The notes beneath the pieces are model-generated. The model was not told where the DNA came from. It saw nothing but the letters and a program-made list of their open reading frames with translations, and ran no database searches. The translations under genes and the position numbers were made by a program. A stretch of 52,088 bases of DNA from Anaerolineales bacterium UBA832 (lineage in GTDB: Bacteria > Chloroflexota > Anaerolineae > Anaerolineales > UBA11657), in contig DBHI01000120.1 of NCBI GenBank assembly GCA_002296125.1, positions 32,329 through 84,416 on the forward strand. The letters are read 5' to 3'. This document shows, one piece after another, positions 18,811 to 42,172 of the stretch (its first letter is position 1; the number at the start of each line of letters is the position of its first letter).

Positions 18811-20570
18811 AATCTAATAAGTTTATACACGCTACATTGTTGCTACCAGCATGGAAGGTTATGTTGTGTTTATTAATGTCATTGCATTTTATTTTAATTC
18901 CTTTGTTTTTAGAACAATACGATACCGTGATGACATATTCTCCAACCATAGTGCAACATGCAGATCCAGTGTTTACACATATTCCAATTCTTAGGAAGTT
19001 GTTAGGTGGTATTCCATCATTTGGAGATCAATTTGTTTTGTTGGAAGATGTTGAAGTTAATATTAATGCATGGCCTAGATTACCTTATTATTTGATGTCG
19101 TTAATTAGCTATCCTGTGATGAATCACTTAGATGTAATACCACTTGTATCTACAGTCTTGTTAACACCAGTTCATGCAGCATTGTTGTATGTTTGGGTAC
19201 GCCGTATTACTGGTTCCATATCAGTATCTATATTGGGTTCTAGTGTTGCTTTATTGTTTAGAGAACTTTTTGTTTTGCAGCCATGGCATTGGGTAAATGT
19301 TAATCAGATCAAAGGTTTGTTGAATTCACCATTTTTTTCTAATGCACTTATTCATCCACAAATTTCGTTTGGTGTTTGTTGTTTTTCATTGATACTTATA
19401 TATCAATTTATGATGAGACCAAGTAAAAAACTGTGTATTGGTATAGGGATTGTATATGGAGTTAGTTTTTACACTTATTTTTATTTATGGACTTATCTTA
19501 CATTACTACTTGGCTTAATAGGTATATATTTATTGTTTCAACGTGATATTGCATCAATTAGCTTGATGCTTAAAGCAGTATGTCTGGCACTGGTAATTTC
19601 GACATTTTATTGGATGGATTATTGGCAGTTTTCTCAGACCGCAGGTTTTGTAGATTTTCAAGACAGGTTCGCTCTTAGTAGGATACCGGATTTGACAGAA
19701 AGATTAGTTAATTTACGACCACATTTAATTACTGTATTATTTTTCATTTTTGTTATTAGTAGAAGAAGTAAACAATATCTATACTTATTGTTGGTCGTTG
19801 TAGCTGCTGAAATATTGTGGAAGGCTCCAATTGTGATTGGTCGAGATTATCAAAGTTTGCATTATGCATATCATTTTTTTGGGCCATTTGTAGCAATTGT
19901 GTTTATGTTTTTATTGCGAGAATTGCTGTTCAAGATTGTACAACCAAACTCATTTTTTGTAGCGGGAATCGTATTTATTAGTGCGATTGTTGTGACGAGC
20001 ATTGGATTATATAGATCTTATCAATATTCTTTGAGTAATCATACTGCATTTTCTATTGAAAAGGATGTTTATGATGCTTATGAATTTGTGCAAAATAATG
20101 TTTCTGCAGGATCTATCATTGTGGTGGCAGATCCTGAAGTTAACATGAGAATACGTAATGTTGCACCAGTATATGTTTATGTTCCCTCAGGATATGGTAC
20201 ATTCGCAACTACTGATGAGATGTTAACTAGATATATAGAAATGAAAAAGTTTTATGGTATCGATTTGGATTATTCTTTGGATTACAAATGGTATGATTCC
20301 ATTCATGACGAATATATTGAGCCTGGATTATTGGAAACTAGTAGATGGTTGTTTAATGGATCTTTAAAATATAGTGACAATATATTAAGGGAGGAAGCTA
20401 TTGTTTCAGTAAATGATTCGCGACAATTTAAATCTTTGACTTATGACGCTGATTTGGTATGGTTTGGTCCCTATGAGAAGGCTGTTAGCGATATTAATAT
20501 AAATAAATTACAAGATCTAACGCTTGTGTATTCTAACAATTCGGTAGATTTGTACAAATTTGCTAAATGA
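18807..20570 (+). CDS. Polytopic membrane protein with a ~190-aa C-terminal soluble domain, putative GT-C-type glycosyltransferase
   Basis: ATGA overlap with the upstream gene. 587 aa with about 11 hydrophobic segments. C-terminal EKDVYDAYEFVQNNVSAGSIIVVADPEVNMRIRNVAPVYVY has the same layout as the tails of 7669..9330 and 16999..18810. Confidence 0.4.
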   Translation: MKSNKFIHATLLLPAWKVMLCLLMSLHFILIPLFLEQYDTVMTYSPTIVQHADPVFTHIPILRKLLGGIPSFGDQFVLLEDVEVNINAWPRLPYYLMSLISYPVMNHLDVIPLVSTVLLTPVHAALLYVWVRRITGSISVSILGSSVALLFRELFVLQPWHWVNVNQIKGLLNSPFFSNALIHPQISFGVCCFSLILIYQFMMRPSKKLCIGIGIVYGVSFYTYFYLWTYLTLLLGLIGIYLLFQRDIASISLMLKAVCLALVISTFYWMDYWQFSQTAGFVDFQDRFALSRIPDLTERLVNLRPHLITVLFFIFVISRRSKQYLYLLLVVVAAEILWKAPIVIGRDYQSLHYAYHFFGPFVAIVFMFLLRELLFKIVQPNSFFVAGIVFISAIVVTSIGLYRSYQYSLSNHTAFSIEKDVYDAYEFVQNNVSAGSIIVVADPEVNMRIRNVAPVYVYVPSGYGTFATTDEMLTRYIEMKKFYGIDLDYSLDYKWYDSIHDEYIEPGLLETSRWLFNGSLKYSDNILREEAIVSVNDSRQFKSLTYDADLVWFGPYEKAVSDININKLQDLTLVYSNNSVDLYKFAK

Positions 20571-22903: not shown

Positions 22904-24340
22904 ATGCGCAGTACATTTATTGATTCTCCTAAATTGATTTTGACAGTATTTGTTACGTTGTTGGTGATCATATTTCAATCTACACAAGAATTTCCAGGTA
23001 TATATTTTGATGAATTCAGAATAGTTATGGTTAGTGACTGGGAATGGAGTATATCTTTTGCAAATATTAATAGGATCATTTCTTTCCGTACCATTTTTTC
23101 TTATTTGCGTTGGGTAGCATTAGTTTCTATTATTTTGTTTGCAGCATACGATTCGTTTACTAAGCATAAAATTCCACGATCAGTCAACAAAGCTGATATC
23201 AGTATTCTTATGTTTATTATAGTTGCTACTATATCTTGTTTATATTCAATCAATGTTACTAAATCAATTATGCGAGTTATATCACTTGTCTTGATGTATT
23301 TGGCAGTTTTTTGGGGAATATGGTTATATGCAGATAGGTATGGTGATAAATCTGTGATACATACTATTGTCATAGTTGTAACCATTGTGTTTGTATTACA
23401 CATACTGAATATATTTTTTGATAGATTAGGTTCATTTCCTTATTTTGGTAGATTTCAAGGTTGGACAATTAATCCTGGAATTGCTGCTAGTCATGCTTCT
23501 CTATTTTTCCCAATAGTACTTTACGTTTCTTTACAGTCAAGTAAATGGCAGTATTGGTTGTTGATAGCTGCTATGATTTTTGTTTTGATTATGTCTCAGA
23601 CACGTACTGAAATTGTTGCTATGTCTATTGGTTCATTATATTTTGTGTTTCGCAGCTACCCGAAGCATAGATTCATTAGTGTTTTATCTGTAACATTGAT
23701 TCTTGTAATTTCGTATGCGTGGATAGAAATTGGTCCCAGAATTTATCCTAAAAATGTAGATTTTGACATACGTCATTTGTTTGGATCTGAAATTGTAGTT
23801 CAAGATAATAGTCTGGATAAATACTTGAGTTTGGACGATGATATAGATAATTGGTATGATCGATTTAATCCACGTACAGCTGATGCTAGAACTTTGGCGC
23901 ATCGTACTGATAAATGGAGGTTGGGTTTGACATATTTTGTTGAGCGGCCATTTCATGGTTTTGGTTTTGGTACAGAAGATCAATTATTTGAATATCATGG
24001 TGTTGAGCCGCAGAATTATCAACTAAGTGGTGCATATATGCATAATTCTTATTTGGGTTTATTACTACAGGTTGGTTTGCTTGGAGCATTTTTGTTTTAC
24101 GCACCAATTGGCTTTTTGGTTTGGAGTGTGATCTTTCGCCATTATGAATGGCCAGACAATTATTTGCGTGATGCTTTGATATCAGTGGTCTTGACTTGTC
24201 TAATAGCTGGATTGTTTTCCAGTGATTTATATTCTATGGGTAACATTAAGAGTATTATATTTTGGATAAGTATTATGATGTTGATTCGTTCAAGAAGAGT
24301 ACAAACGCAGATACAAGATATACAATCAGGATCTATTTGA
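22904..24340 (+). CDS. Wzy_C / O-antigen-ligase-like polytopic membrane protein (polymerase or ligase), paralog 1
   Basis: At least 10 hydrophobic segments. VLIMSQTRTEIVAM, then an external loop, HRTDKWRLGL...FHGFGFGTED, and MHNSYLGLLLQVGLLGAFLF, matching the RfaL/Wzy_C pattern. Confidence 0.7.
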   Translation: MRSTFIDSPKLILTVFVTLLVIIFQSTQEFPGIYFDEFRIVMVSDWEWSISFANINRIISFRTIFSYLRWVALVSIILFAAYDSFTKHKIPRSVNKADISILMFIIVATISCLYSINVTKSIMRVISLVLMYLAVFWGIWLYADRYGDKSVIHTIVIVVTIVFVLHILNIFFDRLGSFPYFGRFQGWTINPGIAASHASLFFPIVLYVSLQSSKWQYWLLIAAMIFVLIMSQTRTEIVAMSIGSLYFVFRSYPKHRFISVLSVTLILVISYAWIEIGPRIYPKNVDFDIRHLFGSEIVVQDNSLDKYLSLDDDIDNWYDRFNPRTADARTLAHRTDKWRLGLTYFVERPFHGFGFGTEDQLFEYHGVEPQNYQLSGAYMHNSYLGLLLQVGLLGAFLFYAPIGFLVWSVIFRHYEWPDNYLRDALISVVLTCLIAGLFSSDLYSMGNIKSIIFWISIMMLIRSRRVQTQIQDIQSGSI

Positions 24341-24355
24341 GATAAGTTTAAATAA

Positions 24356-25972
24356 ATGACAAACGTAAAAATGTCTCGCAAAACATCTTGGTTTATGACA
24401 GTTGGGATGTTAATGCTGATATTACCACATTATAGTTTTATTCCTATTGTAGATTTTGTTAATTTACATATTGATGTAGTGAGTGAAATAGTGTGGTATT
24501 TTCAAAACGGTAATGTTGAGTATGTTATTTCTTTACGAGAAGTTTTATCTTATTTAAGATGGTTACCATTAATATTAATGGTGATATATGTGGTTTGGAT
24601 TGTAATAAATCGACGTATGTTGACGCGGTCAGTGTACAAAGCTGATAAGTATGCGATTGTTTTCTTAAGCTTTAGTGTTATATCTTGTATTTATTCTATA
24701 GATCCGAGAATGACTTTATTGAGATCTGCTTCCCTTTGGTTAATGTATCTAGCAGTTTTTTGGGGTGTTTGGTTCTTTGTTGATATTTTTGGAGTAGAAT
24801 CTATTATTCGTGTGATATTAAACACTGCTTCTATTGTGTTTGTTGTACATATCTTTTTTGCTGTAATGTATCCACAAGTTGCTTTTCCATATTTAGGTAG
24901 GTTTGAAGGTTGGACTATTAATCCAGGTACTGTTGCTGGTTATAGTGCCGTTGTGTTGCCCTTGGCACTTTGTTTTGCTTTGAAGAGTTCAAAAATTACT
25001 CATTGGTTGTTGGTTAGTGCAATTGTAGTTGTTTTAATTATGTCTCAGACACGTACTGAGTTGATTGCTTCAATGTGTGGATCTCTGTTTTTCTTACTCT
25101 TTGTTTTACCTAATAAGCGATTAGTTTCTGTTGTTTTAGTAAGTTGTGTATTTTTAGTAGCAACTATTTGGATTCAGTTTGGTTCTGTGTTATTTCCTCA
25201 AGGAACGGAATTTAGTTGGAATAGATTATTTGTATTTGAGTCAGTATACGAAAATAAATCAGATGACTTAACGTTTTTAGAGAAATTATCCATAGGTACA
25301 ACAGATGAGTCATTGTTTATTAGTGATGATATACAGGATTTAGAAAATATAGATGAGTCATTGTTTGTTGGTGATAATACACAGGATTTAGAAAATAAAG
25401 ATGTATTGATTCCAGAAGACATGAGTCAATCTACAGAAAAGGTAGATAGAGATTCTAGTAATCAAATAGGAACAATTACAAATATTAGAACTTTAAGAAG
25501 AGATAATCCACGAATTCAACATATTACAACTTTGTCTAGTCGTACTGAAAAATGGATGGCTGGATTACAGTATTTGATTCAGAGACCTTTGTTAGGATAT
25601 GGTTTTGGTACAGAAGATAAGTTGTTTGCCTATCATGGGGTACAAGAAAACTTGTATGTTAGGACAGGATCATATCTACATAATGCTTATTTGGGTTTAG
25701 CTTTACAATTGGGTCTAATAGGGGCTCTATTATTGTATTTGCCATTACTTATACTGTTTGTCAATACGGTACGTATATCAATTAATTTCAGCACAGATGA
25801 TTTCAATATAGCTTGTTTGAGTGTACTTTTAGTTGGTATGATATCAGCAGTAGCTTCAAGTGATATTTATTCTATGGGAAACTCTAAAAGTGTTCCATTT
25901 TGGATAAGTGTAATGCTTTTGGTAAGGTATAACTTGGATGCAAAATTTGTTAAGAAGATCACATTTGAATAG
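24356..25972 (+). CDS. Wzy_C / O-antigen-ligase-like polytopic membrane protein, paralog 2, with an expanded acidic loop
   Basis: Colinear with paralog 1: LMYLAVFWGVW, PYLGRFEGWTINPG, VLIMSQTRTELIAS, SRTEKWMAGL...GYGFGTED, LHNAYLGLALQLGLIGALLL. It has about 60 extra residues in the large loop. Confidence 0.7.
   Translation: MTNVKMSRKTSWFMTVGMLMLILPHYSFIPIVDFVNLHIDVVSEIVWYFQNGNVEYVISLREVLSYLRWLPLILMVIYVVWIVINRRMLTRSVYKADKYAIVFLSFSVISCIYSIDPRMTLLRSASLWLMYLAVFWGVWFFVDIFGVESIIRVILNTASIVFVVHIFFAVMYPQVAFPYLGRFEGWTINPGTVAGYSAVVLPLALCFALKSSKITHWLLVSAIVVVLIMSQTRTELIASMCGSLFFLLFVLPNKRLVSVVLVSCVFLVATIWIQFGSVLFPQGTEFSWNRLFVFESVYENKSDDLTFLEKLSIGTTDESLFISDDIQDLENIDESLFVGDNTQDLENKDVLIPEDMSQSTEKVDRDSSNQIGTITNIRTLRRDNPRIQHITTLSSRTEKWMAGLQYLIQRPLLGYGFGTEDKLFAYHGVQENLYVRTGSYLHNAYLGLALQLGLIGALLLYLPLLILFVNTVRISINFSTDDFNIACLSVLLVGMISAVASSDIYSMGNSKSVPFWISVMLLVRYNLDAKFVKKITFE
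25304..25399 (+). repeat. Two tandem copies of a 48-bp (16-codon) unit inside Wzy-like paralog 2
   Basis: 25304-25351 gatgagtcattgtttattagtgatgatatacaggatttagaaaatata versus 25352-25399 gatgagtcattgtttgttggtgataatacacaggatttagaaaataaa (43/48 identical). These encode DESLFISDDIQDLENI / DESLFVGDNTQDLENK. Confidence 0.9.
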
Positions 25973-28488: not shown

Positions 28489-30111
28489 ATGAAAGTTAAT
28501 AATGACCTTGAAAGATTTGCAAATGTGAGATCCATCGTAGGTTTGATTGATTGGAGGCTTATAGTTCTAATTATTTTTTGTTGTAGTGTGCAAATGTATT
28601 TCTTATCTTCTCCATTTGTTAATTTGGAATATGTGTATCATCAGAGTGCGGAATTTATTTCTTACGGTTCTGGTTTAAGAGATTCTTTGTTGAATTTATT
28701 TGAAGGATTTAACAATCCAATTGGAAATGTAGTATTAATTGCTGGAGCTCAAAATTTGTTTGGTGTGACTGAATGGTCATCTAGAATGCCAGCATTGTTG
28801 TCGTGGGTTATTTGTGTTTCTGTAGTGTACGTTGTTTGTAGTATATGGTGGTATTCACCATTGGCTTTAATCAGTGTCACTTTAGTTAGTGTAGTACCAG
28901 TGTTTTGGGTATATAGTGGGACTACTTATCCTGATGTGCCTTTTACTGCATTAATTACATTAGCAATGTTTGTGGCTGGTTATGCTATAGATAAGCATAG
29001 TATTAAGATGCATTTGTTGTCAGCTTTATTGATATCTGTTGCTTCATTGATTCGTTACAACGGGCTATTATTTTTACCCGTTATTTTTATAAGTGCATGG
29101 ATTCATAGTCGTAATAACAAATTAGAAAATGTTATTGTATATTTACTAAAGGTTTTTGTATTTTATATTGGGTTTGTGATAATAGTATTGGCCCCGTATT
29201 TTGTTTGGACAAGACAGGTATTAGGGATAGTTTTCAGACCAGAATTTGTTTTAATATCAGCTAGTGATATTAAATTTCATTTGATTGCAACTATACCTCG
29301 TTTGGGTGGATACATAATGTGGTTAGGTGCTTTATTTGTTCCATTTATTCCAATAATTCTTAATTATATTAGATCTAGCTCATCTCAATCCTATAAGTGG
29401 GTGATTGTTTGTATTATGCCTTTGAATTTGGGTGTTGTGTTCTTAGTGCAATATTTGGAATCTTTTTCAGGTGAAGCATTCGGAGAAATGTGGTTTGGTT
29501 GGTTGGAAAGATTGTTACCATTTTTAGTTATTCAGGCAATGAGACTGGTATTTTTGTTAGTTGGTGAGTTGTGTGTTTTTGGAATAATTAAGTGGGGACG
29601 AGAAAAAGTATGGCCAAATATGTATATTAGTTTGTGGTTGTTGATTCCTTTGTTGATACATTCATTTTATAGAATGAGTCAAAGATATGTTATGTTTTTC
29701 TGTATTCCGCTTGCTATATTTCTATCTTTGATTTTATACAAATCTTTTATTAACGATGCTAAGAAGAGTCTAGCAATTTGGTCAATTACTATATATATGA
29801 TAATCTATTCCGCTGTTGGGATATTTACAACTATTTATTATAGTACTGAAGGTTATGCAGCTGCAGATATAGCATACACTGTTAATAATAACAATTATAA
29901 TATAGAAGCTAGTCGACATAATCCAGTGTTAACTAATTCTGCTTATTTGGTCGATGAAAGTAGATTTAGCAGCAATAATAATAATCAAGTTAGTCATCGA
30001 GTGGTTATGTTAGGTATAGGAGAAACAGTGGATGGAATAGTCTATTTGCGAGAAGTTAGAGTTTTGGGTATATTGTTAAAAAGTTATGCAATTGTGAAAG
30101 AGGTATATTAG
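28489..30111 (+). CDS. ArnT/PMT-like GT-C glycosyltransferase (second)
   Basis: 540 aa with at least 12 hydrophobic segments. The first loop NLEYVYHQSAEFISYGSG...NNPIGNVVLIAGAQNLFGVTEWSSRMPALL resembles the ArnT/PMT_2 N-terminus. The C-terminal ~90 aa are soluble and Asn-rich. Confidence 0.5.
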   Translation: MKVNNDLERFANVRSIVGLIDWRLIVLIIFCCSVQMYFLSSPFVNLEYVYHQSAEFISYGSGLRDSLLNLFEGFNNPIGNVVLIAGAQNLFGVTEWSSRMPALLSWVICVSVVYVVCSIWWYSPLALISVTLVSVVPVFWVYSGTTYPDVPFTALITLAMFVAGYAIDKHSIKMHLLSALLISVASLIRYNGLLFLPVIFISAWIHSRNNKLENVIVYLLKVFVFYIGFVIIVLAPYFVWTRQVLGIVFRPEFVLISASDIKFHLIATIPRLGGYIMWLGALFVPFIPIILNYIRSSSSQSYKWVIVCIMPLNLGVVFLVQYLESFSGEAFGEMWFGWLERLLPFLVIQAMRLVFLLVGELCVFGIIKWGREKVWPNMYISLWLLIPLLIHSFYRMSQRYVMFFCIPLAIFLSLILYKSFINDAKKSLAIWSITIYMIIYSAVGIFTTIYYSTEGYAAADIAYTVNNNNYNIEASRHNPVLTNSAYLVDESRFSSNNNNQVSHRVVMLGIGETVDGIVYLREVRVLGILLKSYAIVKEVY

Positions 30112-30119
30112 GTTAATTA

Positions 30120-31844
30120 ATGAATATTTTGGGTATAAATGCGTATCATGGCGGTGCATCAGCTTGCTTAATTCAAGATGGTGAGTTGATATCAGCTGTT
30201 GAAGAAGAACGCTTTGAAAGAATTAAGTATTGGGCAGGATTTCCTATTAATGCTATTAATCATTGTCTAAAAGAGGCGAAAATATCGATATATGATGTTG
30301 ATCATGTAGGGATATCCAGGGATCCTAATGCAAATCTGATAAGAAAAGCTCGGTTTGCAGTGCAAAGTAGACCTAGTCCAAAACTTCTTTATGATCGGCT
30401 TAGAAATAGACGTGTGGTAGGTAATATATCTACAGTTTTATGTGATTATTTGCAAATAAATAAAAGGGATTTAAAGGCATCGTTTCACAATGTAGAGCAT
30501 CATCGTGCCCATATGGCCAGCACGTTCTTTGTTTCTCCTTATGAAAATGCATCAATCTTGTCAATAGATGGTATGGGAGATTTTACTAGTACGATGTGGG
30601 GTAGAGGATTAGGTAATAAAATTATTGTTGATGATGCAATTCATTTTCCTCATTCTCTTGGAATTTTGTATACCGCTGTTTCTCAGTGGTTAGGTTTTTC
30701 TGAGTATGGTGATGAAGGAAAAGTGATGGGACTAGCTCCTTATGGTTCACCTAGATATGTTGATAAGCTGTTAAAGATATTACTGATACAATCAGACAAA
30801 ACTTTTTTAATTGATCAGAGCTATCTTAGCTACCGTGCTGAAGGTGGTACTATGACTTGGTATGGTGGTAAGCCTCGAATCGGAAAATTGTTTTCCGATA
30901 AATTTCAGAAACTATTTGGAGATCCTCGACTATCAAATCAGGAGATTACATCATATCATGAGGATATTGCTGCTTCATTGCAGGTAGTAACTGAATTAGC
31001 AGAAATGTCATTGGTGAAAAAGTTGTATGAAGATACAGGCATAGATAAATTGTGTTTGTCAGGTGGTGTCGCTTTAAACAGTGTGTTTAATGGTAAGATC
31101 TTACCAGAAACCGAGTTTAATGATATTTATATTCAACCAGCTGCTAGTGATTCAGGTACTGCTTTAGGAGTCTGCTATTACATTTATCATCAAATTCTTG
31201 GGTATCCTCGCAAATATAATATGACAAATGCTTATACAGGACCAAGTTTTTCAAATAGTTATGTAGAATCTGCTTTGAACAAACATACTATTCATTATTC
31301 AACATATGATTCTGAATCTCTAGTGAAAGAGATATCTAAATCTATTGCAGATGGTAAAGTAATAGGTTGGTTTCAGGGTCGAATGGAATGGGGTCCGCGC
31401 GCTTTGGGTAATCGTAGTATTATAGCTGACTCTCGAAATTCAAAAATGAGAGATATATTGAATTCCAGGATAAAGCATCGTGAGAAATTTCGACCTTTTG
31501 CTCCTGCAATAATGGATGAACATACTGGTGATTATTTTGATCAGTCATATCCTGATCCATTTATGCTAAAGGTGTATGGGGTTTTACCTGATAAGCAAGA
31601 AGTAATTCCAGCTGTTACACATGTGGATGGATCGGGCAGATTACAAACTGTTGCTCAGCAAGTGTCTCCATTATATTGGGAGTTGATAAATTCATTTTAT
31701 GAGCGTACAGGAGTTCCAGTGGTATTAAATACTAGCTTTAACGAAAATGAACCTATCGTTTGTAAACCTGAAGAAGCTATTGCATGCTTTTTACGTACTA
31801 AAATGGATGTTCTAGTAATTGGAAATTATGTGGTAACAAGATGA
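30120..31844 (+). CDS. Carbamoyltransferase, NodU/CmcH/TobZ family (copy 2)
   Basis: MNILGINAYHGGASACLIQDGELISAVEEERFERIKY, HHRAHMASTFF, GRMEWGPRALGNRSIIAD, FRPFAPAIM and VLNTSFNENEPIV. Confidence 0.92.
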   Translation: MNILGINAYHGGASACLIQDGELISAVEEERFERIKYWAGFPINAINHCLKEAKISIYDVDHVGISRDPNANLIRKARFAVQSRPSPKLLYDRLRNRRVVGNISTVLCDYLQINKRDLKASFHNVEHHRAHMASTFFVSPYENASILSIDGMGDFTSTMWGRGLGNKIIVDDAIHFPHSLGILYTAVSQWLGFSEYGDEGKVMGLAPYGSPRYVDKLLKILLIQSDKTFLIDQSYLSYRAEGGTMTWYGGKPRIGKLFSDKFQKLFGDPRLSNQEITSYHEDIAASLQVVTELAEMSLVKKLYEDTGIDKLCLSGGVALNSVFNGKILPETEFNDIYIQPAASDSGTALGVCYYIYHQILGYPRKYNMTNAYTGPSFSNSYVESALNKHTIHYSTYDSESLVKEISKSIADGKVIGWFQGRMEWGPRALGNRSIIADSRNSKMRDILNSRIKHREKFRPFAPAIMDEHTGDYFDQSYPDPFMLKVYGVLPDKQEVIPAVTHVDGSGRLQTVAQQVSPLYWELINSFYERTGVPVVLNTSFNENEPIVCKPEEAIACFLRTKMDVLVIGNYVVTR

Positions 31845-36430: not shown

Positions 36431-37471
36431 ATGTATGATGAATTAAGAATAACATTAATATTGATAACAACTCTTTATTTAAGTGATTTGGGTATTAAGA
36501 GGATGATCTTGTGGGCAACAAGCAAGGGGATATTAGATGTTCCTGGTGAGCGTAGTTCACATAGCATTGCTACTCCAACTGGTGGGGGTATTGTGATTGC
36601 ATTAGTTACTATTATTGTTTATTTAATTTCGAGCACAATTTTGCCTTCATGGTTTAAGTTTGATATTGCATCTTTTTTAATAGCATCTATAGTGATTGCT
36701 TTGATAGGATGGATGGATGATTTGTATTCCGTATCAGCTTTATGGAGATTTAGCATACAATCTGTTGTGGCAGTTTTTATGATTGTAACAGTAGGATTAT
36801 ATGACGAAATTGGAATATATGATTATTCGATCAGTTTGTCATGGTTAGGTTTTCCGATCACCTTTTTGTGGATTGTAGGTTTAATTAATGCGTTCAATTT
36901 TATGGATGGTATTGATGGAAATGCTGGGGGAATTAGTGTAGTAGCAGGAATATTTTGGTGTTTGATTTCTATATACCAAGGGGAGTTAAGTTTATTTGTT
37001 TTGAGTATTTTGGTAATTATGAGTTGTTTTGGTTTTTTGATGCATAACTGGCATCCTGCAAAAATATTTATGGGGGATAGTGGAAGTACTTTTCTGGGTT
37101 TTACTTTTGCGGTTATTCCACTTTTTATGTATCAATCAACTGGAAATATAAAAATTCCTATTGTGGGAGTTTTGATTGTTTCTCCATGGATTTGGGATGC
37201 AATTTACACGTTTTTGAGAAGATTATTTCGTAAGGAATCAGTTTTTACGGCACATCGTACATATATGTATCAGCGTTTGACTACTGCTGGATATTCACAT
37301 AGTCTGGGATCTGCTATTTATATTGCCCTTTGTATGCTTACCGGTATGTTAGGCTATATATATATAACTAGTACTGCTTCGAGACATTTGTTGATTGTTT
37401 TATGTTGTTCAATTGTACTGATAGGACAATTAGTCTTGGTGCTTATTGCTGAGGGTAGACAACATTCATGA
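36431..37471 (+). CDS. Polyprenyl-phosphate HexNAc-1-phosphate transferase, MraY/WecA/WbpL superfamily (initiating PGT, copy 1)
   Basis: GWMDDLYS, NAFNFMDGIDGNAGG and FMGDSGSTFLGF. About 10-11 hydrophobic segments. Confidence 0.88.
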   Translation: MYDELRITLILITTLYLSDLGIKRMILWATSKGILDVPGERSSHSIATPTGGGIVIALVTIIVYLISSTILPSWFKFDIASFLIASIVIALIGWMDDLYSVSALWRFSIQSVVAVFMIVTVGLYDEIGIYDYSISLSWLGFPITFLWIVGLINAFNFMDGIDGNAGGISVVAGIFWCLISIYQGELSLFVLSILVIMSCFGFLMHNWHPAKIFMGDSGSTFLGFTFAVIPLFMYQSTGNIKIPIVGVLIVSPWIWDAIYTFLRRLFRKESVFTAHRTYMYQRLTTAGYSHSLGSAIYIALCMLTGMLGYIYITSTASRHLLIVLCCSIVLIGQLVLVLIAEGRQHS

Positions 37472-38490
37472 AATTGGAAGGTTTACAACAATTGGTGATG
37501 GGTAAAACTGTTTTGGTTACTGGGGCAAGTGGTACAGTAGGTGGAGAAGTAGTTCGACAGTTAATCAAATTGTGTCCTGGACAGATAATTTGTTTAGGTA
37601 GAAATAAAGATAAGTTATCCAATCTATTTGTTACTAGTAAAATTAAGTGTGAAACCGAAGTTGTGTGGGAGACATGTGATATCTGTGATAGAGATCAGGT
37701 TAATGTTATTTTTTATAAATATGATCCAGATATAGTTTTCCATTTGGCAGCCGAGAAGGACATTAAATTGACTAATGCTGATCCGTTTAATTGTGTAATG
37801 GTTAATGTAATTGGCACTTTTAATATTGTTCAAAGTGCCAAAGAAACAAATGCAGATAATTTGTTGTTTACTTCTTCAATTAAGGCTAATTATCCTACAA
37901 GTATTATGGGTGCTACAAAAAGAATCGGTGAATTCTTAGTCAAATCTGCTGCAATTGAAATTGAGAAATCATATTACACAGTAAGATTAAGTAATGTAAT
38001 GGAAAGTGAGGGTGGTGTTTATTCTCTATTCTGTAATCAGATTGCAAATGGTGGGCCAATTACAATTACACATCCTGATGCAGTACGTGTGTTTGTTAGC
38101 GCTAAAGAGACAGCATGTTTGCTGTTATATTCATTGATGTGCGCGCATCCAGGTTCTGTTTTGGGATTGGCTGCTGGAAATAGGATGAAAATAGTAGATT
38201 TGGCAATAAGATTAATTGGTGAATATGAGTTTGAAGAAGGGCGTGAAATTGAAATAAGCTATGTTGGTTTGAGGAATGGAGAAAAATTAGTTGAAGAAAA
38301 TGTTGGATTGGGTGCTGAATGGCTTTCTACGACGCATGATAAGATTTTAGTATCTAATCAAACATTCGATTTGTCCGTGCTTAATAACGTTGAGGATAGC
38401 GTCATTGATTTGCTGGATATAGTGAGAAAAAAGGATTTAGATGGTTTGCAATCGGTGATTAGGACTATAGTTCTTGGATATGGTAGATAA
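37468..38490 (+). CDS. CapD/PglF/WbpM-like SDR catalytic domain (UDP-HexNAc 4,6-dehydratase family), soluble and divergent
   Basis: VLVTGASGTVGGEVVRQL, HLAAEKD, NVIGTFN, MGATKRIGE, RLSNVMESEGGVYSLF and GGPITITHPD, colinear with the Polysacc_synt_2 family. It lacks the usual N-terminal 4-TM domain. It has T-S-S-I-K-A (37870-37887) where the family has S-T-D-K-A. Confidence 0.75.
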   Translation: MKLEGLQQLVMGKTVLVTGASGTVGGEVVRQLIKLCPGQIICLGRNKDKLSNLFVTSKIKCETEVVWETCDICDRDQVNVIFYKYDPDIVFHLAAEKDIKLTNADPFNCVMVNVIGTFNIVQSAKETNADNLLFTSSIKANYPTSIMGATKRIGEFLVKSAAIEIEKSYYTVRLSNVMESEGGVYSLFCNQIANGGPITITHPDAVRVFVSAKETACLLLYSLMCAHPGSVLGLAAGNRMKIVDLAIRLIGEYEFEEGREIEISYVGLRNGEKLVEENVGLGAEWLSTTHDKILVSNQTFDLSVLNNVEDSVIDLLDIVRKKDLDGLQSVIRTIVLGYGR

Positions 38491-38586
38491 ATTGTATTTG
38501 TATGTTAGTTAAATATGTTTTTCAAATAGATAGATTAGTTTATTGGGTGCAAACCTACATCGTTTTTAGTTTGGGTAATTACTAGT

Positions 38587-40086
38587 ATGGTTAATATTGG
38601 AACTTTATTGTTAGGGTTTGTTAGTGGATTAATATTGGTCTGGTGTGCTACTGCAATATTTAGAAAGTTTGCTCCAGGATTAGGTTTGGTGGCTGTAGAA
38701 AACTTTCGTAGCTCGCACATTGGTACTGTGCCTGTGGCAGGAGGCGTGACATTTGTTGTCATTTCTCCATTAATAGCTTTGTTCATAGCTAATCAAATAG
38801 ATGTTCATCTAGAGCGCAGTGATTGGGCTTTGCTTGTTTCTGGGTGGTTTATAGCAATTGTGAGTCTGATAGATGACTGGAAACCACTTCCAGCTCGTGT
38901 GAGATTAGTGGCACAGGTTTGGGCTGTTTTGGGGCTAATAATATATGCAAGATATCTGCGGTTTTTTGGTGCAGGAAGTTTTGGGGTTGTTGATGTAGGT
39001 TGGTTAGGAGTATTGATAACCATTGTGTGGGTTTTAGGTATGTCAAATGCTTTTAATTTTATGGATGGCATGGACGGTCTTGTGGCTGGGCAAAGTCTTA
39101 TTGTTGCTCTCAGTGTAGCTTGGATGAGTATGAATGTGGGTTTGAGTTGGATGGCAATATTATCTGCTTCATTAGGAGGTGGATTGTTGGGTTTTTTTAT
39201 GCATAATGTTTCACCAGCTCGTGTGTTTATGGGTGATGTTGGCAGTATATGGTTAGGTTTTTTATTTTCAGGTATGGCGGTAATAGGAGCTCCTAGAAGT
39301 GGTGAACGTTTGTCTCTTGGTTTTTGGATATTGATACTTGGTATATTTTTGCTTGATTCAGGATTAACATTGGGCAGAAGGTTGTTGCAAGGTGAGCCTG
39401 TGTTAGAGGCTCATAGAACACATTATTATCAACGTTTGTTAAGCATTGGTTGGGGTCATGGTCGAGTGACCACATGGTATTTGGTGATGGCGACTATTTT
39501 GGCCGGGGTATCAATTGTGCACTTTGATATTTGGCGATTACCATTTGTAGTACTTGTAGTAGTAGGATTAATGGCTTTTGCGGGCACTTTTGCATTAGTG
39601 CATTATGTGGAAAGTTATAAAGTTGAGTTTGAATCTGAGCATGGTAGCCCATTGGGGAAAGTAACTGCTGGTGGATTACTTAAGCCGTTTGTACGTCTAT
39701 TACAACATTCAGGTACTGTTTTGATGATGGATGGAGCGATAGTGGTTATTGCATATCTCATGGCTTTTAGATTAGGTGTTGGTAATTGGTTTGATATTGA
39801 TATTAGAGACGGTATTATTGCTGTATTTTTTGTGCATTTAACCTTGAATTTGGCTTTGGGGATTTATATTGAAAAGTTATCCTTATCAAGATTGTCCTTA
39901 ATATTGCGGATATTATCATCATGTCTAATGTCATTTATTGCTTTGTTATTAGGAGAGATTTTATTGGGACCGGTGAGATCTATTCCAGTCATAGTATTGA
40001 TAATCGGTACAGGAATGAGTGCTATCGGATTTGTATTAGTACGCTCTAGAAGAACTTTGCAACAAGAAAGGTTCATCAAAGATTGA
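38587..40086 (+). CDS. MraY/WecA/WbpL-family PGT (copy 2) fused to a C-terminal 4-TM module resembling the N-terminal membrane domain of CapD/PglF/WbpM
   Basis: N-terminal ~330 aa: LIDDWKPLP, NAFNFMDGMDGLVAG, FMGDVGSIWLGF. C-terminal ~150 aa: LMMDGAIVVIAYLMAFRLGV...LALGIYIEKLSLSRLSLILRIL...VRSIPVIVLIIGTGMSAIGFVLVRSRR, which matches by eye the D-x6-A-x-x-A-F-x-LRF / G-x-Y...R-x-x-S layout of the WbpM-type TM domain. Confidence 0.7.
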   Translation: MVNIGTLLLGFVSGLILVWCATAIFRKFAPGLGLVAVENFRSSHIGTVPVAGGVTFVVISPLIALFIANQIDVHLERSDWALLVSGWFIAIVSLIDDWKPLPARVRLVAQVWAVLGLIIYARYLRFFGAGSFGVVDVGWLGVLITIVWVLGMSNAFNFMDGMDGLVAGQSLIVALSVAWMSMNVGLSWMAILSASLGGGLLGFFMHNVSPARVFMGDVGSIWLGFLFSGMAVIGAPRSGERLSLGFWILILGIFLLDSGLTLGRRLLQGEPVLEAHRTHYYQRLLSIGWGHGRVTTWYLVMATILAGVSIVHFDIWRLPFVVLVVVGLMAFAGTFALVHYVESYKVEFESEHGSPLGKVTAGGLLKPFVRLLQHSGTVLMMDGAIVVIAYLMAFRLGVGNWFDIDIRDGIIAVFFVHLTLNLALGIYIEKLSLSRLSLILRILSSCLMSFIALLLGEILLGPVRSIPVIVLIIGTGMSAIGFVLVRSRRTLQQERFIKD

Positions 40087-40108: not shown

Positions 40109-42172
40109 TTGACAGAGAGATATTCTAAATATTGTATAACCGTTTTACTTCTTGTTGTAGCATTGATGTGTAGTATAAGAGTGTTTGCTACTCCTTTTAA
40201 TGATAATGAAGGTGGATTTCCGGATGAATTATTCCATGTTGGTCGTTCTTTGCAAAATACCATCCGGATTTCAGAATTGATCAATTTCGGTCATATTGAT
40301 AATTCTGTGGATGATTTAGCAGGTTTTAGTTCTAGAGTAGAAACGGTTTGTGAATTAGGTATTGAAAAGCCAGATATTTGTCCTGGATATTTCGAGTCTC
40401 GTGTTAACAATGTATATCCCGTCAGTAGTGGGAATATTCGTGGAAAGGGAGTCTATATTTTTCATGGACTTATGCAATTAGTATTACATAATGTTAACGT
40501 TGGTTTTAGGATATATTTCGCTAGGATGATGGCCGTTATGATTGGTGTGTTAATGGTTTATGTTATATATAGATTATCTTTTCTATTGTTTCATGATCAA
40601 AGATTGGCTATTGCTGTTGCTGCATCCATTGGTCTAATGCCATCTGTTAGTAACATTGTTAGTGCAGTATCTACAGAAGGACCGGCATTATTGGCAGTAG
40701 CATTACTATTGTTATCAACCACAATCATTGTTGTTCAAGGATTTTCTATTGCGAGATTGTTGCTTTTTGGGTTTTCAGTGTTATGTTGTCTTTTTACAAA
40801 AATTACTGCGATAATACCTTTGCCTATATTGATGTTGTTTTTCCTAGATAGGGTTGGTTTCAGTTGGAAAAAATTGCTTGCGGTTTTTGGTTTTCTCATA
40901 GTCATTGCTATAACATTTTTAAGAGGTGATGCGACAAAAGCAGGTGTAGCACATTGGTACTTTGAGAGGAATCCTGGTCTAGTATCTGTACACGGTACAC
41001 CAGTAAAGTTGGCTTATCAGGTATTTTATAAATCATATGGGGTTGAAAAGAATATAAAACCGAATGCTATTGCGAATGATTGGGCCATTGGTTATACATG
41101 TTTGACTGAATTTGATAATATTTCTTGTGATTCATTTCCATCCCAGTTTTCAAATACTATTGTACAATTTTTGCCAACTAGAGAGGCTAAAAGATTAGCT
41201 GGTAAAATCGTTACTTTTGGATCATGGATGTATGCTAATGATGGTGAAATAGTTAGTAGTCCAGCAATTGTTTTAGGATATGATAATGCTAATCAAGATG
41301 TAGTTGGTGGTTCGCAACATACAGGTAATGGTGCATGGGAATTTGTAGTCAATCATATTCAGTTGCCTAATGATATACGTGATATTGGAGTGAGTTTGGA
41401 TGCTAGCAATCAATCCCTAATATTTTGGGACGATATAGTTTTAATAGAAGGATTGCTAGGTGCCGAAGGTGGACCACCAGTTTTTGATAATAGAGACTCT
41501 TCTTCAGGTGTTTGGAATGGAATTAGATTTAGCAATTTATTAAAAAATGGCTCTGCCGAGCAACATTGGAACAATGTTCCTGATAGTCTTTGGTCATTTA
41601 TGATTAATTATGGTACTGGAACATGGGCTAATAGATTAAATGGTCAATTATTTACACTTTATGATTTAGATCGTACAGGATCAGGATATTTTGCAGGTAT
41701 CCGAGCTATGTTTGTTACTTTTTGGGGGTCTTTTGTGGGTGGTGATTGGCCTGGTTTGGCTCGTTGGCATTATGTTGTTGCGATCGTATTTGTGATCATA
41801 TCTTTGTACGGGTGGCTCCGATATGTCAATTTCGATAGTAAGCTAAAAGTTATGCCATTAGGTTTACCATTATATTTTTGGTGTTTGATATTGGCATATC
41901 TGATAACAGGTATTTTACGTATGGAGATATCTGCTGAATGGGTACCTCCTTTATATTATTCGACCTCAAGATTTGTCTTGCCAGCTATAATTCCTGTGAT
42001 GTTATTGTTAATTTCTGGTTTAGTATTTTTGACAAGCAGGAAATTAAGTCGACTGTTAATAGCTACATTAGTACTTCTGATTTTTTTAGCTAATTCTTGG
42101 ATGTTGTTGCGTGTTGAATTACCATATTTTAAGTGTGACATTGAACCGCGTTGGGTGTGTACAGATCTGTAA
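40109..42172 (+). CDS. Large polytopic membrane protein (687 aa) with a ~270-aa central extracytoplasmic domain, putative GT-C-type glycosyltransferase (DUF2142-like N-terminus)
   Basis: TTG start. The first loop FNDNEGGFPDELFHVGRS carries a PDE-x-x-H motif recalled from DUF2142/GT-C proteins. About 8 hydrophobic segments are followed by a soluble region (~aa 290-560) and then 4 more hydrophobic segments. Confidence 0.45.
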   Translation: MTERYSKYCITVLLLVVALMCSIRVFATPFNDNEGGFPDELFHVGRSLQNTIRISELINFGHIDNSVDDLAGFSSRVETVCELGIEKPDICPGYFESRVNNVYPVSSGNIRGKGVYIFHGLMQLVLHNVNVGFRIYFARMMAVMIGVLMVYVIYRLSFLLFHDQRLAIAVAASIGLMPSVSNIVSAVSTEGPALLAVALLLLSTTIIVVQGFSIARLLLFGFSVLCCLFTKITAIIPLPILMLFFLDRVGFSWKKLLAVFGFLIVIAITFLRGDATKAGVAHWYFERNPGLVSVHGTPVKLAYQVFYKSYGVEKNIKPNAIANDWAIGYTCLTEFDNISCDSFPSQFSNTIVQFLPTREAKRLAGKIVTFGSWMYANDGEIVSSPAIVLGYDNANQDVVGGSQHTGNGAWEFVVNHIQLPNDIRDIGVSLDASNQSLIFWDDIVLIEGLLGAEGGPPVFDNRDSSSGVWNGIRFSNLLKNGSAEQHWNNVPDSLWSFMINYGTGTWANRLNGQLFTLYDLDRTGSGYFAGIRAMFVTFWGSFVGGDWPGLARWHYVVAIVFVIISLYGWLRYVNFDSKLKVMPLGLPLYFWCLILAYLITGILRMEISAEWVPPLYYSTSRFVLPAIIPVMLLLISGLVFLTSRKLSRLLIATLVLLIFLANSWMLLRVELPYFKCDIEPRWVCTDL

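What the first reader, a model, noticed from the sequence alone, without database searches (positions are those of the whole stretch)
36431..40086. Permuted PGT / CapD(PglF, WbpM) architecture: PGT, then a soluble dehydratase-like domain, then a second PGT fused to the 4-TM domain that normally belongs to the dehydratase
Seen:
- Gene 1 (36431) is a complete WecA/WbpL-type PGT.
- Gene 2 (37468, ATGA-coupled) is a CapD-family catalytic domain with no TM region.
- Gene 3 (38587, after a 96-nt gap) is a second complete PGT. Its last ~150 aa (DGAIVVIAYLMAFRLGV ... GIYIEKLSLSRLSLILRIL ... VRSIPVIVLIIGTGMSAIGFVLVRSRR) look like the N-terminal membrane domain of WbpM/PglF/CapD.

Established: in that family the 4-TM domain normally precedes the SDR domain in one polypeptide.

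Inference: a domain swap has tethered the 'dehydratase anchor' to the initiating transferase. This could scaffold a dehydratase-PGT complex for substrate channelling. I am not aware of this arrangement having been described.
Basis: partly seen in the sequence, partly recalled or inferred. Interest (0 to 1): 0.7.

Follow-up and report, generated by a model that had tools for sequence, protein, structure and literature searches.

The report
Sugar-phosphate transferase carrying a dehydratase's membrane anchor
In a glycan-synthesis cluster of marine Anaerolineales bacteria, a membrane enzyme that starts sugar-chain assembly carries at its end the four-helix membrane module normally found at the front of a sugar dehydratase, and the neighbouring anchor-less dehydratase-like gene has lost a key catalytic residue; this is a new and conserved variant of known parts whose function is still unproven.

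Summary
G1 (36431-37471) and G3 (38587-40086) are intact polytopic phosphoglycosyl transferases. G2 (37468-38490) is a soluble Polysacc_synt_2 SDR that overlaps G1 by ATGA.

The last ~150 aa of G3 form four TM helices that are homologous to the N-terminal anchor of PglF/WbpM/CapD dehydratases. A tail profile searched against 1.84 billion proteins hits canonical 4TM-PF13727-PF02719 proteins (E = 4e-12). It also hits ~1000-aa proteins in which a PF00953 transferase is fused to a complete CapD.

The long form is not an artefact. About 15 sequence clusters share it, the tail has dN/dS ≈ 0.2, and the G1-G2-G3-G4 module recurs in several marine Anaerolineales contigs.

The 'domain swap / substrate-channelling scaffold' reading is unproven. 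Graded architectures (PGT|CapD as adjacent genes, the full fusion, forms lacking the SDR, and G3) suggest a truncated WbpL-WbpM-type fusion. G2 has Ile where the family's catalytic Asp sits (S-I-K against T-D-K; 13 of 14 clade clusters against 0 of 106 outgroup proteins), so it is probably not a conventional 4,6-dehydratase. The tail's invariant residues are predicted to face outward, away from G2.

Verdict: a new variant of a known kind, of moderate interest.

The parts
36431..37471 (+). G1: complete polytopic phosphoglycosyl transferase (WecA/WbpL/MraY superfamily), 346 aa, no extension
   Evidence: PF00953 E 9.5e-41. TIGR02380 scores 120 bits, below its cut-off of 326. Read directly from the translation: DD, NAFNFMDGIDG, FMGDSGS and AHRTYMYQRL motifs are present. 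Only 30% identical to the G3 PGT domain. Present upstream of G2 in L001-L005.
37468..38490 (+). G2: soluble, anchor-less and DUF-less SDR of the PglF/CapD (Polysacc_synt_2) branch, with an altered active site
   Evidence: PF02719 E 2.1e-63 across the whole protein. Best solved relative is PglF 5BJU at 145 bits, against CapE 100 and PseB 65. No TM segment. A clade of 14 clusters, then a sharp drop to long PF13727-bearing CapDs.
37873..37887 (+). G2 residues 136-140, 'SSIKA': Ile at the position of the catalytic Asp (PglF Asp396)
   Evidence: Alignment with PglF and 10 CapD SDR domains. SSIKA in 13 of 14 clade clusters and S[ST]DKA in 106 of 106 outgroup hits. The single exception, P0202, is a chimera. 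Family signature TDK...Mx3K as given in PMC8987622.
38491..38586 (.). 96-nt G2-G3 intergenic spacer
   Evidence: No promoter-like or terminator-like consensus site falls inside it.
38587..39618 (+). G3 residues 1-344: polytopic PGT catalytic domain (11 modelled TM helices)
   Evidence: PF00953 E 1.1e-33. G3 has every residue that is invariant across 56 PGT homologs: D97, N154, N157, D160, D163, D217, D257, R265, H279. AF2 pLDDT is mostly above 90. Foldseek matches MraY/DPAGT1 with TM-score up to 0.81. dN/dS 0.07-0.08.
39619..39711 (+). G3 residues 345-375: predicted cytoplasmic linker between the PGT domain and the 4-TM module
   Evidence: Alignment A1: G363, L364 and P367 are invariant. Rich in K/R. 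AF2 models it as the extension of TM11 plus a loop.
39712..40086 (+). G3 residues 376-499 plus stop: CapD/PglF/WbpM-type four-TM-helix module, with no PF13727 DUF and no SDR after it
   Evidence: Exhaustive profile search: P0122 (canonical CapD) E 4e-12, P0124 (PGT-CapD fusion) E 5e-11. Domain census. Collinear alignment over four helices. TIGR03025 N-terminus E 0.0016. dN/dS about 0.2. Invariant R407-D408-G409-I410, F415-T419, N421, E457, L459-P462, I466-P467.
40109..42172 (+). G4: 687-aa polytopic membrane protein of an orphan family, always immediately downstream of G3
   Evidence: No Pfam hit. Only 20 homologs; the only taxon named is Anaerolineales, and the rest are unnamed or 'hypothetical'. 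Conserved position in L001-L005. AF2 pLDDT 62; the central beta-sandwich weakly resembles CBM4/16/22.

Best explanation
G3 is a working polytopic phosphoglycosyl transferase of the WecA/WbpL/MraY superfamily. It keeps, at its C-terminus, the four-TM-helix module that normally opens PglF/WbpM/CapD-type UDP-HexNAc dehydratases, but it lacks the nucleotide-binding DUF (PF13727) and the SDR domain that follow that module elsewhere. It most likely descends from a fusion of adjacent wbpL-like (PGT) and wbpM-like (CapD) genes, followed by loss of the cytoplasmic domains. The 4-TM module is kept by selection because it does something within the membrane at the initiation step, such as oligomerisation or contact with a membrane partner or the lipid carrier. 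It is not kept simply to hold a dehydratase at the membrane. G2 is an offshoot of the same dehydratase branch that lost its anchor and DUF. It has Ile in place of the catalytic Asp and several remodelled motifs, so it is probably not a conventional 4,6-dehydratase: it may be a neofunctionalised NAD(P)-binding sugar-nucleotide enzyme or a non-catalytic binder. G1-G2-G3-G4 form a conserved module, restricted to a clade of marine Anaerolineales, inside a large Wzy-type glycan cluster. Shown here: the homologies, the architectures, the conservation, the purifying selection and the active-site substitution. Inferred: the order of evolutionary events and the function of the tail.
For: Tail homology: whole-library E-values of 4e-12 to 1e-3 to the N-terminal 4-TM block of PF13727+PF02719 proteins and of PF00953+PF13727+PF02719 fusions, with a collinear four-helix alignment. 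Graded series of architectures: PGT followed by a separate canonical CapD beside G3's nearest tail-less relative P0021; full fusions P0124/P0125/P0160/P0143; fusions without an SDR in L073, P0128 and P0035; and G3 itself. The topology fits: the 11-TM PGT ends in the cytoplasm and the 4-TM module runs in-to-in (AF2 helices, plus the positive-inside rule read from the sequence). Selection: tail dN/dS is 0.18-0.22 at dS 0.55-0.93, against 0.07-0.08 for the PGT domain, and there are about 15 full-length clusters. The module is conserved in L001-L005. G2: closest to PglF; a short-form clade nested next to long CapDs; Asp to Ile in 13 of 14 against 0 of 106; PglF-type enzymes lack the SDR Tyr and rely on Thr/Asp (PMC8987622). 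The 4-TM block persists without any nearby CapD-type SDR in L073 and L084.
Against: No direct evidence shows what the tail does. The CapD next to P0021 is not the closest relative of the tail (8.9 bits against 62 bits for P0122), and the PGT domains of the full fusions are only 26-30% identical to G3, so the fusion-then-truncation path is not traced through actual intermediates. An independent profile-profile test against CapD N-termini chosen through their SDR domains was not significant (E 0.17). G2 could still be active through an unknown mechanism.
Confidence: 0.6

Rival explanations
1. One reading: a split CapD. The anchor on G3 docks the soluble SDR G2 at the membrane next to the transferase, forming a complex that channels a modified UDP-sugar straight into the initiation reaction.
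For: The G2 and G3 families are both restricted to the same clade, are of similar size (14 and about 15 clusters) and are always adjacent. G2 derives from anchor-bearing CapDs and G3 carries exactly that kind of anchor. The full PGT-CapD fusions show that selection does favour physical coupling of these two activities.
Against: The DUF that links the anchor to the SDR, and mediates dimerisation and nucleotide binding in WbaP, is absent from both proteins. The W-R-Y-A-S cytoplasmic loop, conserved in canonical anchors, has decayed in the tail family. The tail's invariant residues (RDG, GE.LLGP, IP) sit at the predicted extracytoplasmic helix ends (plus the positive-inside rule). G2 lacks the catalytic Asp and has remodelled motifs. 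The soluble WbpM domain is fully active without its anchor (PMC8987622). In UBA1136 an extra 309-aa ORF separates G2 from G3.
Confidence: 0.22
2. The tail is a non-functional evolutionary remnant of a former PGT-CapD fusion, or an artefactual read-through or assembly join of a PGT gene with a downstream small membrane-protein gene.
For: The tail is less conserved than the PGT domain (43-51% against 64-76% identity to the window protein). AF2 confidence is lower in the tail (60-84). It has lost the W-R-Y-A-S motif.
Against: Uninterrupted ORFs of about 500 aa occur in about 15 clusters from independent ENA, JGI, NCBI, Logan and Tara assemblies. dN/dS is about 0.2 at unsaturated dS. About 30 columns of the tail are invariant across sequences only 36-56% identical. 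No DUF or SDR remnant lies between the G3 stop and the G4 start, which are 22 nt apart.
Confidence: 0.05
3. The tail is a WbaP-type (large monotopic PGT) four-helix bundle, or a generic hydrophobic extension whose match to CapD anchors comes from TM composition bias.
For: The only curated-library hit on the isolated tail is the N-terminus of TIGR03025 EPS_sugtrans (E 0.0016). The Lg-PGT and PglF anchors are themselves structurally related (PMC10942596). The hhalign tests were not significant.
Against: Of the 78 non-self profile hits, only 2 carry Bac_transf, and one of those two (P0141) is a Bac_transf-CapD fusion. By contrast 42 carry CoA_binding_3 and 23 carry Polysacc_synt_2. Hits driven by composition would scatter over unrelated membrane families, but every inspected match aligns in the same register on the block that precedes PF13727.
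Confidence: 0.08

Closest known systems
PglF (C. jejuni) / WbpM (P. aeruginosa) / Cap5D: membrane-anchored UDP-GlcNAc 4,6-dehydratases (4TMH - PF13727 DUF - PF02719 SDR)
   Same: The G3 tail is homologous to their N-terminal 4-TM module. The G2 SDR domain is closest to PglF among solved structures and keeps the NAD(P) GxxGxxG motif and the M-x3-K dyad.
   Different: Here the parts sit on two polypeptides and in the reverse gene order (SDR first, anchor second). The anchor is at the C-terminus of a different enzyme. The DUF is missing altogether. G2 has S-I-K in place of T-D-K.
WbpL-WbpM gene pair (a polytopic PGT followed by its dehydratase) and its uncharacterised natural fusions (PF00953+PF13727+PF02719, about 1000 aa, e.g. 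P0124, P0125, P0160)
   Same: The same two families are physically linked, with the PGT N-terminal to the 4-TM block, and the predicted membrane topology is compatible. The wbpL-wbpM adjacency in P. aeruginosa is from my own knowledge.
   Different: G3 stops right after TM4 of the anchor. Its PGT domain is only 26-30% identical to those of the full fusions. Public sources label the fusions 'hypothetical', give them a composite automatic name, or leave them unnamed.
Large monotopic PGTs (WbaP, CpsE): 4TMH - DUF - Bac_transf (Dodge et al. 2024, PMC10942596)
   Same: A four-helix membrane bundle of the same broad kind is attached to an initiating phosphoglycosyl transferase. The isolated tail weakly hits the TIGR03025 N-terminus.
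   Different: The catalytic domain belongs to the other PGT superfamily (polytopic, PF00953). The bundle is C-terminal and not N-terminal. There is no DUF. The sequence affinity is with the dehydratase branch.
Bifunctional monotopic PGT fusions (Bi-PGTs; PMC11626204, PMC10942596)
   Same: The general principle is the same: pathway enzymes are fused to the initiating transferase. P0141, P0234 and P0248 are Bac_transf-CapD examples seen here.
   Different: Those fusions involve monotopic PGTs and add catalytic domains. G3 is a polytopic PGT that carries only a non-catalytic membrane module.

Membership tests
Polytopic PGT superfamily (MraY/WecA/WbpL; Pfam PF00953) - G1 and G3 | PF00953 domain above the gathering score | tested here: met
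   G1 scores 139.9 bits and G3 117 bits against a cut-off of 27.
Polytopic PGT superfamily (MraY/WecA/WbpL; Pfam PF00953) - G1 and G3 | Conserved cytoplasmic catalytic motifs (DD, NxxNxxDGxDG, MGDxGS, HxxH-type loop) | tested here: met
   G3 has every residue that is invariant in 56 homologs: D97, N154, N157, D160, D163, D217, D257, R265, H279. The G1 motifs were read directly from the translation.
Polytopic PGT superfamily (MraY/WecA/WbpL; Pfam PF00953) - G1 and G3 | MraY-like multi-pass fold | tested here: met
   G3 model pLDDT 86. Foldseek against MraY/DPAGT1: E down to 6e-10, TM-score (target) up to 0.81. G1 was not modelled.
WecA equivalog (NCBIfam TIGR02380) | Score above the curated equivalog cut-off of 326 bits | tested here: not met
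   G1 scores 120 bits and G3 92 bits. They are family members but not WecA orthologs, and their sugar specificity is unknown.
PglF/WbpM/CapD-type membrane anchor (4TMH module) - G3 tail | Sequence-profile homology to the 4-TM block that precedes PF13727 in PF02719 proteins | tested here: met
   E 4e-12 (P0122), 1e-9 (P0131) and 4e-8 (P0138) in a library of 1.84e9 proteins. Domain census. Collinear motifs.
PglF/WbpM/CapD-type membrane anchor (4TMH module) - G3 tail | Four TM helices with both ends in the cytoplasm | tested here: met
   Four hydrophobic segments and four AF2 helices. The K/R distribution (linker, loop 2 and C-terminus positive; loops 1 and 3 acidic or neutral) was read from the sequence. 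This is a prediction only.
PglF/WbpM/CapD-type membrane anchor (4TMH module) - G3 tail | Followed by the PF13727 nucleotide-binding DUF and a PF02719 SDR domain in the same chain | tested here: not met
   G3 ends 13 residues after TM4. No PF13727 or PF02719 hit. G4 starts 22 nt downstream.
PglF/WbpM/CapD-type membrane anchor (4TMH module) - G3 tail | Conserved W-R-Y-A-S motif in the loop after TM2 | tested here: not met
   Present in the consensus of 78 hits, with W at 90% or more. The window has 'YIEKLSLS'; some orthologs keep R-W but none keep Y-A-S.
PglF/WbpM-type UDP-GlcNAc 4,6-dehydratase - G2 | PF02719 domain and closest similarity to PglF | tested here: met
   214.7 bits. PglF 5BJU E 5e-41, ahead of CapE and PseB.
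PglF/WbpM-type UDP-GlcNAc 4,6-dehydratase - G2 | Active-site signature T-D-K ... M-x3-K (Thr/Asp abstract the C4-OH proton; PMC8987622) | tested here: not met
   G2 has S-I-K ... M-x3-K. The Ile is present in 13 of 14 clade clusters, whereas Asp is present in 106 of 106 outgroup proteins.
PglF/WbpM-type UDP-GlcNAc 4,6-dehydratase - G2 | N-terminal 4TMH plus DUF | tested here: not met
   PF02719 starts at residue 15. No TM segment.
PglF/WbpM-type UDP-GlcNAc 4,6-dehydratase - G2 | Dehydratase activity on UDP-GlcNAc | not testable with these tools
   Needs an enzyme assay.
Large monotopic PGT (WbaP-like) - G3 tail | Bac_transf (PF02397) catalytic domain C-terminal to the bundle | tested here: not met
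   No PF02397 in G3. Only 2 of the 78 tail-profile hits carry it.

The most novel reading that the evidence does not exclude
The 4-TM helix bundle shared by PglF-like dehydratases and large monotopic PGTs is an autonomous membrane module dedicated to the initiation step, for example by engaging polyprenyl phosphate, the PGT dimer, or downstream membrane partners such as G4. G3 would then be a natural minimal construct in which it works with neither the DUF nor an SDR, on the other PGT superfamily. In the stronger form of this reading, the G3 tail and the active-site-altered G2 together make up a split, repurposed CapD that regulates or feeds the transferase.
Probability: 0.2. Interest if true: 0.7.

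Novelty: new variant of a known kind. Interest (0 to 1): 0.5.

Why it matters
Dodge et al. (2024, PMC10942596) called the sharing of the 4-TM plus DUF module between WbaP-type transferases and PglF-like dehydratases 'puzzling', and its membrane part has no assigned function. This locus shows the same module on a third host, a polytopic PGT, reduced to the membrane helices alone and still under purifying selection. Along with it I found a graded natural series: separate genes, a full PGT-CapD fusion, fusions lacking the SDR, and the anchor alone. That argues that the bundle has a role tied to the initiation step itself and is more than an anchor for a soluble domain, and it offers natural minimal constructs for testing that role. 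The clade-wide Asp-to-Ile change in G2 also marks a PglF-like SDR subfamily whose active-site signature is absent from the review's classification table (PMC8987622). The practical limits are that the hosts are uncultured marine Anaerolineales and that nothing here shows what the tail or G2 actually does.

Tried and rejected
1. Pfam on the isolated tail gave no family. NCBIfam gave only a weak hit to the TIGR03025 N-terminus, E 0.0016.
2. A PDB sequence search with the tail profile gave nothing meaningful; the only hit was Octarellin at E 1.9.
3. hhalign of the tail profile against the single P0035 anchor gave the expected collinear register but E 0.088.
4. hhalign against 10 CapD N-termini chosen independently through G2's SDR homologs gave E 0.17. 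That set was heterogeneous and partly N-truncated, so the test was underpowered.
5. Recent duplication as the origin of the two PGTs is rejected: G1 and G3 are 30% identical and each has closer relatives elsewhere.
6. I looked for a special affinity of G2 for the SDR domains of the PGT-CapD fusions and found none: identity is 33-37% to both fusion and canonical forms.
7. I tested whether the CapD next to P0021 is the donor of the tail. It is not supported: 8.9 bits.
8. P0202 looked like a Asp-retaining member of the G2 clade but is a chimera.
9. G4 identity: no Pfam hit, an orphan family, a weak AF2 model, and only CBM-like hits at E around 1e-3.
10. The promoter and terminator scan found nothing in the 96-nt gap.
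11. Literature searches found no described polytopic-PGT/CapD fusions. One query was too generic to be useful, and Riegert et al. 2017 could not be opened.
12. The G2-tail complex could not be modelled because no multimer prediction tool was available.

Full report
**1. The observation**

The window is 33-34% GC, and all 40 ORFs of 150 aa or more lie on the + strand.

- G1, 36431-37471, 346 aa: Glycos_transf_4 (PF00953), E 9.5e-41.
- G2, 37468-38490, 340 aa: Polysacc_synt_2 (PF02719) covering residues 15-295, E 2.1e-63. It has no hydrophobic segment.
- G3, 38587-40086, 499 aa: PF00953 at residues 81-234, followed by about 150 residues with no Pfam hit.

The ATGA overlap between G1 and G2 is confirmed, as is the 96-nt gap before G3. 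No promoter or terminator consensus falls in that gap.

**2. Is the long G3 real?**

A search of 5.8 billion proteins returned about 15 clusters of full-length relatives, 491-507 aa long and 52-69% identical. They come from ENA, JGI, NCBI, Logan and Tara assemblies, and the tail aligns end to end in all of them. Only two of the GTDB species representatives carry this form, the marine MAGs Anaerolineales bacterium UBA3001 and UBA1136.

Codon-level comparison of pairs that are not saturated (dS 0.55-1.0) gives dN/dS of 0.18-0.22 for the tail and 0.07-0.08 for the PGT domain. The tail is therefore a selected coding domain. It is not a read-through, an assembly join or a decaying remnant.

**3. 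What the tail is**

I built a profile from 12 tails (A2) and searched it with HMMER against every one of 1.84 billion representative proteins. It gave 81 hits at E<=1e-3. Outside the tail's own family there are two classes.

- Proteins of about 630-660 aa, matched at their N-terminus: P0122 E 4e-12, P0131 E 1e-9, P0138 E 4e-8.
- Proteins of about 1000 aa, matched at residues about 340-480: P0124 E 5e-11, P0125 E 1e-10, P0160, P0143.

Pfam shows that the first class is canonical CoA_binding_3 (PF13727) plus Polysacc_synt_2, which is the CapD/PglF/WbpM architecture. The second class is Glycos_transf_4 + PF13727 + Polysacc_synt_2, a polytopic PGT fused to a complete CapD.

In a census of all 78 non-self hits, 42 carry PF13727, 23 PF02719, 7 PF00953 and only 2 Bac_transf. 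One of those two, P0141, is itself a Bac_transf-CapD fusion. The tail therefore belongs to the dehydratase branch of the module and not to the WbaP branch.

A MAFFT alignment is collinear over all four helices. The shared features are:

- TM1: D..aY..LRF
- TM2: vHL..N..fGlY
- TM4: rpiPlSV..G..gf..R.R

AlphaFold2 on G3 (56-sequence alignment; pLDDT 86, pTM 0.82) gives an 11-helix PGT domain and four further long helices at 365-397, 406-430, 437-459 and 468-498. The PGT part matches MraY/DPAGT1 structures with TM-score up to 0.81. No solved structure matches the tail.

Some weaker tests failed or were underpowered. Pfam finds nothing on the tail. hhalign against one anchor gave E 0.088, and against an independently chosen but ragged set of CapD N-termini E 0.17. 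The conclusion rests on the whole-library E-values and on how specific the hits are.

**4. Where it probably came from**

The data suggest a simpler route, because related sequences form a graded series.

- Unfused: G3's nearest tail-less relative, P0021 (44% identical), is followed after a 51-nt gap by a separate canonical 4TM-PF13727-PF02719 gene. This is the wbpL->wbpM gene order; the comparison with P. aeruginosa is from my own knowledge.
- Fully fused: the proteins of about 1000 aa.
- Fused but without a recognisable SDR: a complete ORF in a freshwater Chloroflexi MAG (L073), P0128 (a partial record), and P0035 from Krumholzibacteriota.
- G3: only the four helices are left.

The topology fits this series. 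The PGT domain ends in the cytoplasm and the module runs from cytoplasm to cytoplasm. This follows from the AF2 helices and from the K/R distribution read directly from the sequence.

There are caveats. The anchor of the CapD next to P0021 is not the closest relative of the tail (8.9 bits against 62 bits for P0122). The PGT domains of the full fusions are only 26-30% identical to G3. The order of events is therefore an inference and has not been traced through real intermediates. G1 and G3 share only 30% identity, so they are not recent duplicates.

**5. G2 is not an ordinary dehydratase**

Among solved structures G2 is closest to the PglF catalytic domain (145 bits, against CapE 100 and PseB 65). 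Its family is compact: 14 clusters, all about 340 aa. Scores then drop from 274 to 208 bits, to long proteins bearing PF13727. G2 is thus a short offshoot of the anchored branch.

According to the review PMC8987622, PglF/WbpM enzymes have the signature T-D-K...M-x3-K. Because the usual SDR tyrosine is a methionine in this branch, Thr395 and Asp396 remove the C4-OH proton. G2 keeps Ser, Lys and M-x3-K but has Ile at the Asp position (residues 136-140, SSIKA).

This holds in 13 of 14 clade clusters, while all 106 outgroup proteins have S[ST]DKA. The one exception, P0202, is a chimera whose junction lies next to the motif.

Other family motifs change together with it:

- AAYKHV becomes AAEKDI.
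- GNVLGSRGSV becomes SNV[ML]ES.GGV.
- LDMGE becomes LAAGN.

The NAD(P)-binding GxxGxxG motif is intact. G2 is thus under constraint, but it lacks both known general bases. I infer that it has a new function or has become a non-catalytic binder. Neither can be shown here.

**6. The module and its surroundings**

G1, G2, G3 and a 687-aa polytopic membrane protein, G4 (40109-42172), occur in this order in the window and in L001-L005. In UBA1136 an extra ORF sits between G2 and G3.

G4 belongs to an orphan family. It has 20 homologs and no Pfam domain, and the only taxon named among them is Anaerolineales. Its model is weak (pLDDT 62), and only its central beta-sandwich resembles carbohydrate-binding modules, at E about 1e-3.

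The rest of the window is a large glycan cluster. It contains:

- many GT1, GT2 and GT4 enzymes
- two Wzy_C paralogs
- several PMT-type GT-C proteins
- two carbamoyltransferases
- an Asn-synthase-like amidotransferase
- a PseC-like aminotransferase
- methyltransferases
- several other SDRs

**7. How it most likely works**

*Shown.* G3 has every residue that is invariant across 56 PGT homologs and an MraY-like fold. It most likely transfers a HexNAc-type sugar-1-phosphate to polyprenyl phosphate.

*Inferred.* The tail acts within the membrane at this initiation step, in oligomerisation or in contact with a partner or the lipid carrier. It does not serve simply as an anchor for G2. The reasons are:

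- The DUF that connects the anchor to the SDR, and that dimerises and binds nucleotide in WbaP (PMC10942596), is absent.
- The cytoplasmic W-R-Y-A-S loop that is conserved in canonical anchors has decayed in the tail family.
- The tail's invariant residues (R407-D408-G409, E457, G461-P462, I466-P467) map to the predicted outer ends of the helices.
- Related truncated fusions keep the module with no CapD-type SDR gene nearby.
- The soluble WbpM domain works without its anchor.

The G2 and G3 families are co-distributed, are adjacent, and have complementary losses.

**8. Comparison with what is known, and novelty**

Three things were already known:

- the anchored architecture of PglF/WbpM
- the sharing of the 4TMH plus DUF module with large monotopic PGTs, which Dodge et al. 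call 'puzzling'
- bifunctional fusions of monotopic PGTs

I found no description of the following in the literature searched:

- the module on a polytopic PGT
- the module reduced to the helices alone
- a PglF-like subfamily with S-I-K

Public sources label the G3-type proteins 'glycosyltransferase family 4 protein'. They label the fusions 'hypothetical protein', give them a composite automatic name, or leave them unnamed.

I classify this as a new variant of a known kind, with interest 0.5. It bears directly on a recently posed question and offers natural minimal constructs. It is, however, confined to uncultured marine Anaerolineales, and its function remains inferred.

Noticed in passing
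window 40109-42172 (G4): A 687-aa polytopic membrane protein of an orphan family: 20 homologs, no Pfam domain, and the only taxon named is Anaerolineales. It always sits immediately downstream of G3. A 'GGFPDELFH' motif is conserved in the first loop, and the central beta-sandwich weakly resembles CBM4/16/22. It may be a GT-C-like or glycan-handling partner of G3.
   Followed up: partly
window 38587-40086: G3 is the most GC-rich ORF in the window: GC 0.390 (z = 2.8 over the 40 ORFs) and GC3 0.290 (z = 2.4). The PGT part is 0.406 and the tail 0.355. This may hint at a different history from the neighbouring genes.
   Followed up: partly
P0202 (homolog of window 37468-38490): A 299-aa protein from a 3-kb contig. 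Its first ~100 residues are canonical CapD-like (STDKA, AALKHV), and the rest is about 97% identical to G2. The junction lies at the conserved 'PTSIMGATKR'. It is either a recombinant or an assembly chimera.
   Followed up: partly
L073 9096-10973 (Chloroflexi bacterium K_Offshore_80m_m2_157): A complete ORF encoding a polytopic PGT, the 4-TM module and CoA_binding_3, with no SDR. It is an intermediate between the full PGT-CapD fusions and G3.
   Followed up: partly
P0141, P0234, P0248 (found): Monotopic PGT (Bac_transf) fused to a CapD-type dehydratase. In P0141 the order is Bac_transf, then 4TM, CoA_binding_3 and Polysacc_synt_2. This is a different PGT-dehydratase fusion class, seen in Anaerolineae and Acidiferrales MAGs.
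   Followed up: no
L005 6659-7588 and 9541-11662 (Anaerolineales bacterium UBA1136): An extra 309-aa ORF is inserted between the G2 and G3 orthologs, and the G4 ortholog is split into two overlapping ORFs. The split could be a frameshift or an assembly error.
   Followed up: no
window 22904-24340 and 24356-25972; 5909-7681 and 30120-31844: The cluster contains paired paralogs: two adjacent Wzy_C (O-antigen ligase/polymerase-like) genes and two carbamoyltransferases, in addition to the two PGTs. This suggests two parallel or interlocked lipid-linked glycan assembly lines in a single 52-kb one-strand cluster.
   Followed up: no
window 587-2464, 7669-9330, 9434-10915, 18807-20570, 28489-30111: Five large ORFs (493-625 aa) in the cluster have no Pfam hit at E<=1e-5, or no NCBIfam hit at E<=1e-10 in the case of 28489-30111. 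The L001 ortholog of 28489-30111 is PMT_2-like.
   Followed up: no
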